Positions 24,396 through 31,600 of a stretch of 64,000 nt of DNA are shown here, one piece after another (positions within the stretch are counted from its first letter, which is position 1; every line of letters starts with the position of its first letter). The notes beneath the pieces were generated by a model, which did not search any database, had not been told where the DNA came from, and saw only the letters and a program-made list of their open reading frames with translations. The stretch lies in assembly GCF_009914755.1 (NCBI RefSeq), contig NC_060939.1. One strand, given 5' to 3'. This DNA is from the human T2T-CHM13v2.0 reference genome, Homo sapiens. The position numbers and the translations under genes are program-made.

Positions 24396-26127
24396 TAAAT
24401 CTGTGATTTTTTTTAGCTAAGAATAAAATCAGCACATTTAACCATGTTGGAAGTATTTTGACCCTTCCCTCAGCTGGAGACTCTCAGTGGCCAACAACCC
24501 CGGGTCTAGGTAGCCTTTGGAGCAGTAGTGGGTTCCTTTTTCCCAGTTCTTTAGAATTAGACCCCTTATTTGGGGGAACGGGTTCACATTTTTAGCCTAG
24601 AGAGCAAGGAGTGTTGTTCCTTCCATGTGTTGTTAGATCGACTGTCTGCTGGTAGGTTGGTGGCCAGCAGAGACCTACTCTGCCCGACCTGGCCTCAGTG
24701 GACGCCAGGACCTTGCTTCCTTCTTCCTCAGCAGCCCAAGCTCCCGCTTCCTGAGTGGAAGTCTTGTGTTCTATGTGTTGGGGCCTTTTATGAAACAGTA
24801 TGCAAGATAATGGGTTCACCAAGAGAAAAAGGAGGAGAAAGGGATGACAGAATTTTAGCCATAGCCACACAGGCAGAGCAAATGAAAGAATTTCAAATAT
24901 GGTGTAAGAATATATTCCAAAAGAGGTAGGAATTTATAATATGGACCCTGCTTTCTTCCATAGAAAGATTTGAGGCATGCTACAGCAAAAATACACATCA
25001 AAAACACACATCGCTTGGAACATAATTTATTCATTCAAATTATATTAACTGCCCTACTTTCATGTGCTAGGAGCTAGGCCTATACCTGAACAAGATGGAC
25101 ATAGACCCTGCTCCTATGCAGCTTCTACTGGAATTGAGTAAGGTTGCAAATGAAATCAGAAATCACACAAGAAAGTTTGTGTCTGTTGGGGTGGTTCAGA
25201 GCTGGAAGGAAACAAAATGATCATCTCCAATATTCTTTATCTTATAGATGAGGAAATAGTGGTTCAGAAATATTGTAACTGATCCAAAGATGAAACAGTT
25301 TTTTCATTTGAGCACGAAAATTTGCTCTGAGGAAATAGGAAAATATCTATTACCTGGGTTTCCTGGCTTTCGGTGCTTGATTAAGAGAGAATAGTTAGGG
25401 AAAGGAGACTTCTTTGGGGGGATGCTAATTTATGAAAAAAATGATCTGGATCCTTATATCACAGACATGAAGAGACAATGAAACATTCTTAATATGACTA
25501 TATAAAATCGTTAGCCCTTCATGAAATTGAGCCATATAGTATTGTGTTGTATTTTAGTGAAGAGATTTCTGTATGGGTTTAAACTACTGCATAGTTCAAG
25601 ACTGTAACTTTGTTTAATCTAACTTGACATAAGAATGTAACCAAAAAAATCTGGAAAAATGTTTAACTCTTTTAAAGTCCAGCATCGAGCAGCCACTCAG
25701 CCAATATGATGACTGAAGCTCTTCAGATGAAACCACTGCCCCCACCCAGCTGTCTGGTCCAGTCAGGTCCTTTTTTAATAGCATGTTTTGGGGTCCTAAA
25801 TTATCTGTGTAGTTGTCTCAGTAGAAGGGAAACTGACGAGAAAAAGAAACAGGGATGTTTGAATATGTTGTTCTTACTTTTATTAGAACATAGACTCCTA
25901 GAGCTGGAATTGTATCTTGGATTTTTGGTTCCGCTGGTAGCACACCGTGCTCAATAAAAATTAATCCATCAATCAACAGGACAGAAAATCCCATCCTGCC
26001 AGAAGCAATACTTCCTGTTTGTCCCATACAAAGCCAATTAGAGTGTTAGGATGTTGTAATGGAGACAGAAACTAAGGAAAGCGGCAAAAATAAAAAAATT
26101 CCCCCAAAACATCAAATAGAAAATGTA

Positions 26128-26341
26128 GGGGTAGGGGGATTGGGGGCACAAGATGGGTTGAACCAGATAGGGAAGATCCCCCAGTGTTGTCCTGCTCCCA
26201 GTCCAGGTTTGGGAAAATGCCGGCAGCGTTTCCCTGTGTCTTTCCCTCACAAAGTCTCCAAGTCTCTCCTCGAATGAGCTCCAAGGCTTGGGAGAAACAA
26301 TCTCTTCCTCTGCCCGGGTTGCGTGGATCTCCAGTGGAAAG
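26128..26341 (+). other. Leader exon of the captured transcript (TPTE2 pseudogene-type first exon)
   Basis: Lies between the 5' TSD and the TPTE2 coding exon and ends in AAG| like an exon end. It encodes MPAAFPCVFPSQSLQV...[18 protein letters not shown], which I recall resembling the N-terminus annotated for TPTE2P1 (unverified). Confidence 0.6.
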
Positions 26342-26682
26342 GAAGAACCGGAACTATGGTTTGTGCGCTCCTTATTGCCTCCGAAATATTTTTAACTGCA
26401 GAGGAAAGCCTGTATTATTTTGGAGAAAGGCGAACAGATAAAACCCACAGCAATAAATTTCAGGGAGTAGAAACTCCTTGTCAGAATAGATATGTTGGAT
26501 ATTTTGCACAAGTGAAACATCTCTACAACGGGAATATCCCTCCAAGACGGATACTCTTTATAAAAAGATTCATTATTTATTCGACTCATGGTGTTGGAAC
26601 AGGTGATGTATGTGATCTACAATTCCAAATAGTAATGGAGAAAAAGGTTGTCTTTTCCAGTACTTCATTAGGAAATTGTTCG
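26342..26682 (+). pseudogene. Processed fragment of TPTE2/TPIP-family phosphatase coding exons captured by the SVA
   Basis: Translation [55 protein letters not shown]...[14 protein letters not shown] matches the TPTE2 PTEN-like phosphatase C-terminal part and the start of C2. It is intronless and the catalytic HCKGGK segment is absent. Confidence 0.88.
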
Positions 26683-26720
26683 CTGCCTCCCTTGGCCTCC
26701 CAAAGTGCTAAGATTACAGC

Positions 26721-28868: not shown

Positions 28869-29169
28869 GGCAGGGCGCGGTGGCTCACGCCTGTAAATCC
28901 CAGCTGTTAGGGAGGCCGAGGCGGGCGGATCACAAGGTCAGGAGATCGAGACCATCCTGGCTAACACAGTGAAACCCCGTCTCTACTAAAAATACAAAAT
29001 ATTAGCCGGGCGAGGTGGCGGGCGCCTGTAGTCCCAGCTGCTCGGGAGGCTGAGGCAGGAGAATGGCGTGAACCCGGGAGACGGAGCTTGCAGTGAGCCA
29101 AGACCGCGCCACTGCACTCCAGCCTGGGCGACAGAGCAAGACTCCGTCTCAAAAAAAAAAAAAAAAAAA
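28869..29169 (+). mobile_element. AluY-like element inside the NANOG 3'UTR (carried in with the mRNA)
   Basis: Full dimeric Alu with AluY diagnostics (gagatcgagaccatcctggctaacac, gaatggcgtgaacccggg) and A tail. It lies between the NANOG stop codon and the poly(A). Confidence 0.9.
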
Positions 29170-29395
29170 GTATTTTCTCCAGGAAGATCCAATAGGAAAA
29201 AAAAAAAAAAAAGAAACCTCGCTGATTAGGCTCCAACCATACTCCACCCTCCATGAGATTGACTGGATGGGCATCATGGAAACCAGAACACGTGGTTTCC
29301 AAACAAGAAAAATCCTATGAGGGATGGGAGGAGGGGAGAGGAAGGATTCAGCCAGTGTCCAGACTGAAATTGAGTAATATCAGTTTCACTCATCT

Positions 29396-30313
29396 TCACA
29401 CGTCTTCAGGTTGCATGTTCATGGAGTAGTTTAGGAATAAATCCATGGTTTGTGGAGTACTAAAATACCTAGTGGTCTGCTGTATTACATTAAGGCCTTC
29501 CCCAGCAGCTTCCAAGGCAGCCTCCAAGTCACTGGCAGGAGAATTTGGCTGGAAGTGCATGCAGGACTGCAGAGATTCCTCTCCACAGTTATAGAAGGGA
29601 CTGTTCCAGGCCTGATTGTTCCAGGATTGGGTGCACCAGGTCTGAGTGTTCCAGGAGTGGTTGCTCCAGGACTGGATGTTCTGGGTCTGGTTGCTCCAGG
29701 TTGAATTGTTCCAGGTCTGGTTGCTCCACATTGGAAGGTTCCCAGTCGGGTTCACCAGGCATCCCTGGTGGTAGGAAGAGTAGAGGCTGGGGTAGGTAGG
29801 TGCTGAGGCCTTCTGCGTCACACCATTGCTATTCTTCGGCCAGTTGTTTTTCTGCCACCTCTTAGATTTCATTCTCTGGTTCTGGAACCAGGTCTTCACC
29901 TGTTTGTAGCTGAGGTTCAGGATGTTGGAGAGTTCTTGCATCTGCTGGAGGCTGAGGTATTTCTGTCTCTGAAATCTATCATTGAGTACACACAGCTGGG
30001 TGGAAGAGAACACAGTTCTGGTCTTCTGTTTCTTGACCGGGACCTTGTCTTCCTTTTTTGCGACACTATTCTCTGCAGAAGTGGGTTGTTTGCCTTTGGG
30101 ACTGGTGGAAGAATCAGGGCTGTCCTGAATAAGCAGATCCATGGAGGAAGGAAGAGGAGAGACAGTCTCTGTGTGAGGCATCTCAGCAGAAGACATTTGC
30201 AAGGATGGATAGTTTTCTTCAGGCCCACAAATCACAGGCATAGGTGAAGATTCTTTACAGTCGGATGCTTCAAAGCAAGGCAAGCTTTGGGGACAAGCTG
30301 GATCCACACTCAT
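29396..30313 (-). CDS. NANOGP8: NANOG homeobox retrogene, intact intronless 305-aa ORF
   Basis: [13 protein letters not shown]...MQPEDV with homeodomain ([13 protein letters not shown]...[15 protein letters not shown]) and Trp pentapeptide repeats. No introns. His253 (CAC, 29557-29555) replaces NANOG Gln253, the known NANOGP8 diagnostic. Asn82 at 30070-30068. Confidence 0.97.
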
Positions 30314-31600
30314 GTTAGTATAGAGGAAGAGGAGGAAAAAATTTAAGAGGTGGACTGGAAAAAAGGTTAAGGCAGCTTTAAGACTTTTCTGGAAGATGTT
30401 AGAGAAATAGGACCTCCAGAAGGAAAAGTATCAAGAAATTGGGATAAAGTGAGTTGCCTGCATAATAACATGAGGCAACCAGCTCAGTCCAGCAGAACGT
30501 TAAAATCCTGGCAAGATGTGCTTTGTTAAACAGATGCTTGAAGGCAGCATGCTGGTTAAGAGTCATCACCACTCCCTAATCTCAAGTACCCAGGGACACA
30601 AACACTGCTGAAGGCCGCAGGGACCTCTGCCTAGGAAAACCAGAGACCTTTGTTCACGTGTTTATCTACTGACCTTCTCTCCACTATTATTCTATGACCC
30701 TGCCACATCCCCCTCTCTGAGAAACACCCAAGAATGATCAATAAATACTAAAAAAAAAAAAAAAAAGAAAATGTAACTGGACACAAACAGGTAACGGTGG
30801 AAAGCCACTACCCAATTCCATTTTCCCCTTGACACTTTCTTTCAACTTATCCTCAATGTAATAGAAGTTTGACTGCAGAGTGGCATCTTGGACTGCCCAC
30901 GTTTCCTGGTCAGTGTTGGGCAGGGGAAGCTGTCTGCCTTCCTAACAGCTCACCCAGAGGGCACTCACTGCGGCGCTCCCAGCAGTCTTCCCATCTACCT
31001 GACGCCCCCACCTGGGCACCAGCTCCTGAGTTCTCCTTGCTCAGCTTTGCTTGGTCAGAAAACAAGAAGGACAATTCATCTGGGAAGGGATAAATAGGCA
31101 GCTGGCAAGAGAGAGCAAGCTAGTTACTACTGATAAGGGAGGGTGGGTGTGGGAAGGAAAGCGAGACAGGCAAATTGGGAATTCTTTGTGTCATGAACCC
31201 TCTTGAGAATTGATTAAAAGCTACCAAGGCTTTCTCCAGAACACAACCATATGCATATGTGCACACAATTTTGCATTCATTTCATGAGTTCCCATCTCAC
31301 TTTCACACAAACATACCTCTTGTTCTAAAAACAAACTCTAGAAGCTATAAGCTTCCAAATCTTACTAACCAAGAAATTCTGAAAGACTTTTTAATCATGG
31401 CAACTTTTTAATATCAAGGATTCTCCAATTGTAGTCTTATATGTTTCAAATATAATCAGTTTCAAAAGCAATTCCTAAAACACTAAAAATGGTCAAAATG
31501 GACACTTATGGTAAAAAATACTTGTTACCAATGTTTCGTCCCACGTTGCAAAGCACGCTGTATTTCAAGTTTCTACATATGCATTTACATAAAATTATTT

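What the first reader, a model, noticed from the sequence alone, without database searches (positions are those of the whole stretch)
26118..30775. Nested retro-composite: TPTE2 exons spliced onto an SVA that later received NANOGP8
Seen: one 10-bp TSD (AGAAAATGTA, 26118-26127 / 30766-30775) brackets the leader exon, intronless TPTE2-like exons, SVA remnant, VNTR, SINE-R and poly(A). A second, internal 17-bp TSD brackets the antisense NANOG retrocopy, which itself holds an Alu. Known: NANOGP8 sitting in an SVA is described, and SVAs can trap exons (e.g. MAST2-SVA_F1). Inference: three RNA-level events are stacked here (exon trapping, L1-driven retrotransposition of the chimeric mRNA, then the NANOG insertion). 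Parts of two unrelated genes are therefore packaged in one TSD-bounded 4.6-kb unit. I do not recall the TPTE2 cargo being highlighted for this locus.
Basis: partly seen in the sequence, partly recalled or inferred. Interest (0 to 1): 0.85.

Follow-up and report, generated by a model that had tools for sequence, protein, structure and literature searches.

The report
TPTE2 exons spliced onto NANOGP8's SVA
The old SVA retrotransposon that hosts the human retrogene NANOGP8 carries at its front end a spliced, intron-free piece of a TPTE2-family phosphatase gene, a tidy but inert example of a known process in which a jumping element captures exons of the gene it sat in.

Summary
AGAAAATGTA occurs twice in the window, at 26118-26127 and 30766-30775. 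The 17-mer GCAAGATGTGCTTTGTT occurs twice, flanking the antisense NANOGP8 retrocopy.

Between the outer repeats lie:
- a 214-nt leader and four TPTE2-family exons with no introns (26128-26682);
- 36 nt of SVA Alu-like sequence;
- a 1.4-kb VNTR;
- a split SINE-R and a poly(A) tail.

All five joins fall on GT...AG splice sites of TPTE-family genes or of the SVA. This fits splicing of upstream exons into an intronic SVA, followed by one L1-driven insertion. NANOGP8 inserted later, as already published.

New points:
- The cargo keeps 12 intron-derived bases, which need a splice acceptor found in only 4 of 9 human paralogs.
- A sister TPTE-SVA chimera lies on chromosome 3. It has another first exon, other acceptors and another paralog lineage.
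- No present-day paralog carries an SVA downstream of the last captured exon, so the source is missing.
- Each junction is unique in the genome, so neither chimera amplified.

It is a new member of a known kind (SVA exon trapping, like MAST2-SVA_F1). I could not read the two 2009 catalogues of SVA 5' transductions, so prior listing is possible. Interest is moderate to low.

The parts
26118..26127 (.). 5' copy of the outer target-site duplication AGAAAATGTA
   Evidence: 2 matches in the window, 0.21 expected. The last two bases (TA) also match the TPTE-family genomic sequence upstream of the leader, giving 2 nt of microhomology.
26128..26341 (+). Leader: 214 nt that lie contiguously in an intron of TPTE-family genes, about 770 bp upstream of exon a, and end at a GT donor (GGAAAG|gtgaga)
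   Evidence: 95-97% identity to 7 paralogs and 87-88% to 2. Its 3' ~155 nt overlap a ~410-bp dispersed repeat (77-80% identity, 736 candidates). No tool named that repeat.
26342..26403 (+). TPTE2-family exon a (62 nt)
   Evidence: Bounded by ag| and |gt in the paralogs whose flanks were printed (A, B, D).
26404..26484 (+). TPTE2-family exon b (81 nt)
26485..26590 (+). TPTE2-family exon c (106 nt)
26591..26602 (+). 12 intron-derived bases (GTGTTGGAACAG), retained because an upstream AG acceptor was used
   Evidence: the acceptor TTTAG|GTGTTGG exists in paralogs B, C, H and I (4 of 9). The other five read TTTTGTTGG, with no AG. The chr3 sister copy lacks these 12 nt.
26603..26682 (+). TPTE2-family exon d (80 nt), ending exactly at the donor TTGTTCG|gtaaga
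   Evidence: The frame 26341-26682 best matches PDB chain 9c49_A (TPTE2) residues 307-413. It also gives a weak match to the start of Pfam PTEN_C2, 20.7 bits against a cut-off of 27.1.
26683..26718 (+). Remnant of the SVA Alu-like domain, starting directly after the position of an AG (CCTCCCAG|CCGCCTGCC) in ordinary SVAs
   Evidence: that segment occurs 1718 times in the genome at up to 2 mismatches. The chr15 sequence aligns to it without gaps, with 2 substitutions. There are no hexamer repeats.
26719..28111 (+). SVA VNTR
   Evidence: period 37 nt, 36.8 copies. One search agrees.
28112..28401 (+). SINE-R, 5' part. Its last 17 nt (28385-28401) are the target site duplicated by NANOGP8.
   Evidence: 93-95% identity to the 39 other scored SVA copies; seven other SVAs carry the 17-mer once, followed by AAACAG.
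28402..30510 (-). NANOGP8 retrocopy: poly(A) seen as a T-run at 28402-28430, an Alu inherited from the parental 3' UTR at about 28869-29169, and the CDS at 29396-30313
   Evidence: the supplied RefSeq table, and Fairbanks 2012 (PMC3484675, passages read).
30511..30527 (.). Second copy of the 17-nt inner TSD
30528..30749 (+). SINE-R, 3' part, with AATAAA at 30740-30745
   Evidence: 97-98% identity to the 39 other scored SVA copies.
30750..30765 (+). Poly(A) tail of the chimeric TPTE2-SVA RNA
30766..30775 (.). 3' copy of the outer TSD

Best explanation
This is a fossil chimeric retrotransposon insertion made in two separate retrotransposition events.

Event 1. An SVA sat in sense orientation downstream of exon d in a testis-expressed TPTE2-type gene copy (that expression pattern is recalled, not tested here). 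A transcript that began, or was later truncated, in the intron upstream of exon a was spliced leader -> a -> b -> c -> d. At exon d it used an upstream alternative acceptor, which added 12 nt. [quoted passage not shown] L1 proteins inserted this RNA at chr15, producing the 10-bp TSD. According to the literature this happened in the human-chimpanzee-gorilla ancestor.

Event 2. Much later, in the human lineage, a NANOG mRNA was inserted in antisense at TTTGTT/AA within the SINE-R, producing the 17-bp TSD.

Shown here: the anatomy, the splice-site coincidence of every join, the TSDs, the poly(A) tails and the nesting order. Inferred: the intronic position of the source SVA (no such locus survives in this genome), the identity of the promoter, and the role of L1. 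The TPTE2 piece has no evident function today.
For: 1. One TSD pair brackets the whole unit, and a second pair brackets only NANOGP8. The inner 17-mer is native SINE-R sequence, present once in the 7 other SVA copies aligned, so NANOGP8 is the later event.
2. The cargo maps as five separate pieces, 1-4 kb apart, in nine TPTE-family loci.
3. Each internal join equals a donor|acceptor pair in those loci: AAAG|gtgaga...ag|GAAGAACC, GAG|gtatga...ag|GAAAGCC, TCAG|gtaagt...cag|AATAG, GTG|gtaagt...ttag|GTGTTGG (flanks printed for paralogs A, B and D; the exon d acceptor for all nine).
4. The cargo ends on the last base of exon d, before gtaaga. The SVA part begins right after an AG that is conserved in the Alu-like domain (1718 genomic matches).
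5. An independent sister chimera on chr3 joins the same exon d donor to another classic AG (CAG|GCTGGAGTGCAG) 52 nt further upstream. It has its own 15-bp TSD.
6. AATAAA plus a 16-nt A-run precede the 3' TSD. The nick sites read TTCT/AT and TGTT/AA, which are L1-endonuclease-like; the consensus TTTT/AA is recalled.
7. The mechanism is established for SVA (Hancks & Kazazian 2016, PMC4859970, passages; Damert 2018, PMC6139936, passages).
8. Fairbanks 2012 (PMC3484675, passages) dates the SVA to the human-chimp-gorilla ancestor and NANOGP8 to the human lineage. The 10 private substitutions in 555 nt of cargo fit an insertion many millions of years old.
Against: - No source locus was found. None of the 9 TPTE-family paralogs in this genome has an SVA within 10 kb downstream of exon d. 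That stretch covers intron d and the following introns, because the next C2-domain exons lie 5.5-8.2 kb downstream in the 8 paralogs where they were detected (A-H; none listed for I). There is also none within 20 kb in the 2 paralogs checked that far.
- The SVA acceptor is reconstructed by allowing 2 substitutions.
- No transcript evidence shows that the leader is used as an exon.
- I did not see the orthologous empty or filled sites in other primates myself.
- The sister copy comes from a different paralog lineage. Two captures of exactly the same four exons are therefore not explained by a single simple source.
Confidence: 0.86

Rival explanations
1. Template switching during reverse transcription. 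L1 reverse transcriptase copied an SVA RNA from its 3' end and jumped to a spliced TPTE2 mRNA. The chimera would then arise without the SVA ever lying inside a TPTE-family gene.
For: No intronic source SVA exists in any of the 9 paralogs. Chimeric retrocopies formed by template switching are known for L1 (recalled; only the search listing of PMC11838501 was seen).
Against: A jump would not be expected to land on the last base of an exon and directly after an AG in the SVA. Here that happened twice, at two different AGs, in two independent copies. Normal TPTE2 mRNA does not end at exon d.
Confidence: 0.05
2. Two adjacent independent insertions: a TPTE2 processed pseudogene, and an SVA that landed at its 3' end (or the reverse order).
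For: Nested and adjacent retro-insertions are common. NANOGP8 in this same element is one.
Against: There is no poly(A) and no TSD at the 26682/26683 boundary, and only one TSD pair brackets both parts. The boundary coincides with splice sites on both sides. The chr3 copy has the same architecture inside one 15-bp TSD.
Confidence: 0.03
3. A sub-hypothesis about the source. Both chimeras (chr15 and chr3) came from one long-lived, now lost TPTE-family locus carrying an intronic SVA. That locus would have used two promoters and alternative acceptors.
For: - Both copies carry exactly exons a-d and use the same donor.
- Both SINE-Rs share a minority variant, GCTGGTT: 53 exact 31-mers against 1209 for the common form.
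- Exon divergence between the two copies (19/329) is similar to their SINE-R divergence (94.5% identity over 256 nt).
Against: - In the tree, chr3 falls inside the chr21/chr14/chrY clade (support 98/98), while chr15 sits with the chr13 TPTE2-type copies.
- The two copies share no derived substitution in the exons.
- About 10 of their 19 differences are at sites where the paralogs themselves differ (my count from the position lists; no call computed it directly).
Confidence: 0.25

Closest known systems
SVA_F1 (MAST2 exon 1 spliced into the SVA Alu-like domain; Hancks 2009, Damert 2009, Bantysh & Buzdin 2009, as summarised in PMC6139936 and PMC4859970)
   Same: Gene sequence replaces the hexamer and most of the Alu-like domain. 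The join is exon donor to an AG in the Alu-like region. The whole unit lies inside one TSD pair. The source gene is expressed in testis (recalled for TPTE2).
   Different: - Four internal coding exons plus an intronic leader are captured, not a single GC-rich first exon.
- The host is an old SVA (SVA_A according to Fairbanks 2012) and is not human-specific.
- There was no amplification: each junction occurs at 1 genomic place at up to 3 mismatches, against 84 SVA_F1 copies.
[quoted passage not shown]
Chimpanzee pt_SVA_D6 (STK40 exon 1; some members carry exons of 8 other genes; Damert 2018, PMC6139936, passages)
   Same: Splicing-mediated acquisition of exons at the SVA 5' end, including cases with more than one gene.
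   Different: Different species, subfamily and gene. That subfamily has 94 members, whereas this is a single copy.
NANOGP8 embedded in an SVA_A (Fairbanks et al. 2012, PMC3484675)
   Same: It is the same locus. The antisense insertion into the LTR-derived part of SINE-R, the TSD and the Alu in the 3' UTR are all as published.
   Different: The paper's main text never mentions TPTE (0 occurrences) or the Alu-like domain (0 occurrences). Its Figure 3 legend lists only env, LTR, poly(A), TSD and VNTR. Its PDF supplements could not be read.
Sister TPTE-SVA chimera at T2T chr3:100,183,962-100,185,498 (minus strand)
   Same: It has the same exons a-d and the same exon d donor joined to the SVA Alu-like domain. 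It also has a VNTR, a SINE-R, an A-rich tail and its own TSD, ATAAAAGTTCCTCAC.
   Different: - Its first exon is a CpG-island exon that matches the 5' end of the chr21 and chr13 TPTE loci, not the intronic leader.
- It uses the canonical exon d acceptor, so it has no 12-nt extension.
- Its SVA acceptor is 52 nt further upstream.
- It belongs to a different paralog lineage.
- Neither copy can be the parent of the other.

Membership tests
SVA retrotransposon insertion | GC-rich VNTR followed by SINE-R, AATAAA and poly(A) | tested here: met
   VNTR at 26719-28111. The SINE-R halves are 93-98% identical to the 39 other scored SVA copies in each search. AATAAA at 30740-45 and an A-run at 30750-65.
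SVA retrotransposon insertion | 5' CCCTCT hexamer repeats and a full Alu-like domain | tested here: not met
   Only the last 36 nt of the Alu-like domain remain (26683-26718). TPTE2-family sequence takes the place of the rest. SVA_F1 has the same arrangement, so this is a non-canonical SVA.
SVA retrotransposon insertion | Target-site duplication and an L1-endonuclease-like nick site | tested here: met
   A perfect 10-bp TSD. The inferred bottom-strand nick reads TTCT/AT, which only loosely resembles the recalled consensus TTTT/AA.
SVA subfamily A | Diagnostic substitutions of the SVA_A consensus | not testable with these tools
   No repeat library was on hand. The label SVA_A is taken from Fairbanks 2012.
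Exon-trapping (5' spliced) SVA chimera | The cargo ends exactly at an exon donor and the SVA part starts after an AG | tested here: met
   Exon d ends at TTGTTCG|gtaaga in the paralogs. The SVA part aligns directly after CCTCCCAG, with 2 substitutions.
Exon-trapping (5' spliced) SVA chimera | The cargo is intronless although its parent locus has introns with GT-AG boundaries | tested here: met
   Five pieces lie 1-4 kb apart in 9 loci. Flanks with gt/ag were printed for 3 of the 9, and the exon d acceptor for all 9.
Exon-trapping (5' spliced) SVA chimera | A source gene with a sense SVA downstream of the captured exon | tested here: not met
   0 of 9 paralogs has an SVA within 10 kb downstream, and 0 of 2 within 20 kb. 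The source may be lost, or absent from this one haplotype. This feature is a prediction of the mechanism and does not define the family.
Exon-trapping (5' spliced) SVA chimera | Amplification into a subfamily (as in SVA_F1) | tested here: not met
   Each 28-nt junction occurs at 1 place in the genome at up to 3 mismatches.
TPTE/TPTE2 gene family (cargo) | Sequence and exon structure of the phosphatase-to-C2 region | tested here: met
   Best PDB hit is TPTE2, chain 9c49_A, residues 307-413, E = 6.7e-33. The cargo differs from the two closest chr13 paralogs at 20 of 555 aligned positions (96.4% identity). The gene names attached to those loci are recalled.
NANOGP8 | Intronless NANOG copy with an intact 305-codon ORF, a homeodomain, poly(A) and a TSD at 15q14 | tested here: met
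   and the RefSeq table supplied with the finding.

The most novel reading that the evidence does not exclude
The same four TPTE-family exons were captured at least twice by old SVAs. The two transcripts started at different promoters, used different acceptors and stem from different paralog lineages, yet no surviving paralog holds an SVA. This would mean that one or more TPTE-family copies carried an intronic SVA, perhaps spread or erased among paralogs by gene conversion in the unstable acrocentric and pericentromeric duplications. Such copies would have acted repeatedly as factories of chimeric retrocopies in the ape germline. That would be the oldest exon-trapping SVA lineage, predating SVA_F1.
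Probability: 0.3. Interest if true: 0.5.

Novelty: new member of a known kind. Interest (0 to 1): 0.36.

Why it matters
The finding adds a well-resolved, multi-exon and evolutionarily old case to the short list of SVAs that trapped host exons by splicing. It corrects the published picture of the element that hosts the much-studied NANOGP8 retrogene: the 5' 555 bp of that 'SVA_A' are TPTE2-family sequence, not SVA.

Anyone designing primers, mapping reads or interpreting regulatory marks just downstream of NANOGP8 should know that this stretch is 95-97% identical to seven TPTE-family loci on chr13, chr14, chr21 and chrY.

The retrocopy also preserves a snapshot of an ancestral TPTE2-type transcript, with its alternative start and alternative acceptor. 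No function is indicated for the cargo.

Tried and rejected
- **Source SVA.** I blasted three SVA parts against 20 kb of each of the 9 paralogs and against a further 10 kb for two of them. No SVA was found.
- Paralogs C to I were therefore checked only to 10 kb. One search shows that this still covers intron d and the following introns.
- **SINE-R-like hits in paralogs B and C.** These hits, 2.3 kb downstream of exon d, first looked like a source. The match starts where the LTR-derived part of SINE-R starts and contains about 360 bp that SINE-R lacks, and there is no VNTR. I read it as a solo HERV-K-type LTR. That reading and the family name are recalled, not given by a tool.
- **Shorter Alu-like remnant.** I considered that it arose by a later deletion from a chr3-type junction. 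I rejected this because the deletion would have to start exactly at the exon boundary, whereas an ungapped alignment places the join after a conserved AG.
- **Hits of the chr3 leader on chr20 and chr22.** I suspected they were further retrocopies. Their similarity runs on past the donor into intron sequence, so they are genomic paralogs of the CpG island.
- **Closeness of the two SINE-Rs.** chr3 is not among the 40 best matches to chr15. This is uninformative, because private mutations dominate. Only one shared minority variant was found.
- **Papers not held.** Hancks 2009, Damert 2009 and Hancks & Kazazian 2010 are not in the library.
- **Literature searches.** Searches for SVA+TPTE2+transduction, SVA/exon-trapping/TPTE, SVA+TPTE+retrotransposon and NANOGP8+TPTE returned nothing relevant. 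Only the listings were seen.

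
Full report
**Observation**

- AGAAAATGTA is found twice in the 64-kb window, at 26118-26127 and 30766-30775. Shuffles give 0.21 matches on average, and 0 of 100 shuffles reached two.
- The second copy follows a 16-nt A-run (30750-30765), which follows AATAAA at 30740-30745.
- GCAAGATGTGCTTTGTT is found twice, at 28385-28401 and 30511-30527, against 0.00 expected. 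The first copy abuts a T-run (28402-28430). This T-run is the poly(A) tail of a minus-strand retrocopy.
- The 305-codon minus-strand ORF (29399-30313) has a homeodomain, E = 4.8e-19, and the supplied RefSeq table calls it NANOGP8.
- A plus-strand Alu at about 28869-29169 lies within that retrocopy. Fairbanks et al. 2012 (PMC3484675, passages read) state that this Alu is also present in the parental NANOG 3' UTR.

**Anatomy of the 5' cargo**

A search of the window's own genome with 26128-26700 (40 of 222 candidates scored) and BLAST against 20 kb fetched from each of nine loci show five separate pieces, 1-4 kb apart. The nine loci are on chr13 (six), chr14, chr21 and chrY.

| Piece | Window coordinates | Length |
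|---|---|---|
| Leader | 26128-26341 | 214 nt |
| Exon a | 26342-26403 | 62 nt |
| Exon b | 26404-26484 | 81 nt |
| Exon c | 26485-26590 | 106 nt |
| Extension | 26591-26602 | 12 nt |
| Exon d | 26603-26682 | 80 nt |

In the three paralogs whose flanks I printed (A = chr13:18.6 Mb, B = chr13:23.8 Mb, D = chr21:10.5 Mb), each piece is bounded by ag| and |gt. The leader is intronic sequence about 770 bp upstream of exon a and ends at GGAAAG|gtgaga.

The translation of 26341-26682 best matches the solved structure named TPTE2 (9c49_A, residues 307-413, E = 6.7e-33). It also gives a sub-threshold match to the start of Pfam PTEN_C2 (20.7 bits, cut-off 27.1). The gene names I attach to particular loci (TPTE2, TPTE, TPTE2P1/P6, TPTEP2) are recalled and come from no call.

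**An informative detail**

After exon c the window has 12 extra bases, GTGTTGGAACAG, which are the end of the preceding intron. They can be included only if splicing used an AG 12 nt upstream of the normal acceptor. That AG (TTTAG|GTGTTGG) exists in paralogs B, C, H and I. It is absent from A, D, E, F and G, which read TTTTGTTGG (4 of 9 against 5 of 9). The source gene therefore had the B/C-type intron.

Overall the cargo differs at 20 of 555 aligned positions from each of A and B, and at 33-41 positions from C, D, F and G (E is identical to D in these columns). In a maximum-likelihood tree it sits in an unresolved group with A and B+C. It has 10 private substitutions in 555 nt, which fits an old insertion.

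**The join to the SVA**

The cargo ends on the last base of exon d (TTGTTCG|gtaaga in the paralogs). The next bases, CTGCCTCCCTTGGCCTCCCAAAGTG..., align without gaps and with two substitutions to the SVA Alu-like segment CC(A/G)CCTGCCTTGGCCTCCCAAAGTG. In ordinary SVAs that segment is preceded by CCACCTCCCAG (1718 genomic matches at up to 2 mismatches). So the SVA part starts directly after an AG with a pyrimidine-rich run before it.

Only 36 nt of the Alu-like domain remain and there are no hexamer repeats. Then follow:
- the VNTR at 26719-28111, 36.8 copies of a 37-nt unit;
- the two SINE-R halves, 93-95% and 97-98% identical to the 39 other scored SVA copies in each search.

No poly(A) or direct repeat marks the 26682/26683 boundary.

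**Order of events**

The 17-mer duplicated by NANOGP8 is native SINE-R sequence. The chr3 copy and six other SVAs that I aligned all carry it once, followed by AAACAG. NANOGP8 therefore inserted into an existing SVA, at TTTGTT/AA.

Fairbanks et al. 2012 report the SVA (their label SVA_A) in human, chimpanzee and gorilla and an empty site in orangutan and macaque. They report NANOGP8 as human-lineage only. I could not examine other primates. Their main text has no occurrence of 'TPTE' or 'Alu-like', and their Figure 3 legend names only env, LTR, poly(A), TSD and VNTR. Their supplements are PDFs and could not be read.

**A sister copy**

The genome search also found one other intronless copy, on chr3 (100,183,962-100,185,498, minus strand). 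It lies inside its own 15-bp TSD, ATAAAAGTTCCTCAC. It consists of a 202-nt CpG-rich first exon, exons a-d, the SVA Alu-like domain, a VNTR, a SINE-R and an A-rich tail.

Three features show that it is an independent splice form and neither parent nor daughter of the chr15 copy:
- Its first exon matches sequences about 68 kb upstream, on the same strand, of the chr21 and chr13:13.5-Mb paralogs (87-88%). It also matches genomic CpG islands on chr22 (94%) and chr20 (90%). It is not the intronic leader.
- It uses the normal exon d acceptor, so it has no 12-nt extension.
- It is joined to the SVA at CAG|GCTGGAGTGCAG, 52 nt upstream of the chr15 acceptor.

Its exons fall inside the chr21/chr14/chrY clade (support 98/98). 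It shares no derived substitution with the chr15 cargo.

Each junction 28-mer occurs at one place in the genome at up to 3 mismatches. Neither chimera gave rise to a subfamily.

**The missing source**

If splicing made these chimeras, an SVA must have lain downstream of exon d in the same primary transcript. No SVA is present within 10 kb downstream of exon d in any of the nine paralogs, nor within 20 kb in A and B. A scan with the PTEN_C2 profile places the next C2-domain exons 5.5-8.2 kb downstream in eight of the nine (A-H; paralog I gave no hit), so there intron d and the following introns are covered.

B and C do have a SINE-R-like stretch 2.3 kb downstream. It has no VNTR and contains about 360 bp that SINE-R lacks, so I read it as a solo HERV-K-type LTR (the name is recalled).

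The two chimeras share one minority SINE-R variant, with 53 exact 31-mers against 1209 for the common form. None of the 53 places lies in a TPTE-family locus. This is weak evidence, roughly a 1-in-25 chance match, for a related SVA source. Why exactly the same four exons were captured twice from different paralog lineages remains unexplained.

**Mechanism and rivals**

The best explanation is exon trapping by an intronic SVA followed by one L1-mediated insertion, then a second, nested retro-insertion of NANOG mRNA (confidence 0.86). Retrotransposition of chimeric SVA transcripts that contain upstream exons is an established kind:
- Hancks & Kazazian 2016 (PMC4859970, passages);
- Damert 2018 (PMC6139936, passages), covering MAST2-SVA_F1, STK40-pt_SVA_D6 and exons of 8 other genes.

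Template switching of the reverse transcriptase (0.05) would explain the absent source, but not joins at an exon end and after an AG in two copies. Two adjacent independent insertions (0.03) are contradicted by the single TSD pair and by the lack of a poly(A) at the boundary.

**Function**

None is evident. The TPTE2-derived frame runs on into the VNTR for 161 codons from 26341 before a stop. It encodes only the end of the phosphatase domain and the start of C2. The cargo lies downstream of NANOGP8's 3' end, not at its promoter.

**Novelty and score**

Full-text searches found no paper linking this SVA or NANOGP8 with TPTE cargo: SVA+TPTE2+transduction, SVA/exon-trapping/TPTE, SVA+TPTE+retrotransposon and NANOGP8+TPTE. 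I saw the listings only. The two hits are general pseudogene reviews, judged by title and abstract.

The two 2009 genome-wide catalogues of SVA 5' transductions and the 2010 review are not held, so the element may already be listed there.

I rate it a new member of a known kind, of moderate to low interest (0.36). The recurrent capture is the part most worth following up.

Noticed in passing
L002 495-2031 (minus) = T2T chr3:100,183,962-100,185,498: A second TPTE-family/SVA chimera with its own 15-bp TSD. It consists of a CpG-island first exon, exons a-d and an SVA joined at another AG. Its long A-rich tail contains the non-A stretch TTCTAATTATACTT, which might be a short 3' transduction.
   Followed up: partly
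window 25864-26395 (minus), boundary at 26395/26396: The last exon of the predicted lncRNA LOC105370765 starts at an AG formed on the antisense strand inside TPTE2 exon a (plus-strand CT at 26396-26397). Its preceding intron spans the whole SVA and NANOGP8.
   Followed up: no
paralog B, about chr13:23,799,660-23,800,399, and paralog C (L029-L032): A sense-oriented HERV-K-LTR-like element (89-92% identical to SINE-R, with about 360 extra bp) lies 2.3 kb downstream of exon d in two TPTE2-type paralogs only.
   Followed up: partly
L022 (chr20:55.37 Mb) and L025 (chr22:38.86 Mb): Genomic paralogs of the TPTE-type CpG-island first exon. Their similarity continues past the GT donor into the intron. 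The chr22 copy is the closest match (94%) to the chr3 chimera's first exon.
   Followed up: partly
paralog A intron, chr13:18,634,790-18,635,200 approx.; window 26190-26341: A dispersed repeat of about 410 bp (736 candidate copies, 77-80% identity) overlaps the 3' two-thirds of the leader and supplies its GT donor. No tool named it.
   Followed up: partly
chr13:40,041,251-40,043,758 (minus): Further TPTE-like C2-domain exons, with stop codons, at a tenth locus that lacks the leader and exons a-d. It is probably a partial pseudogene copy.
   Followed up: no
paralogs D (chr21:10.53 Mb) and E (chr13:13.46 Mb): These two copies are identical over all 556 aligned columns, and the chr14 copy differs from them by 2. 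The duplicates on the acrocentric arms are therefore very recent or homogenised.
   Followed up: no
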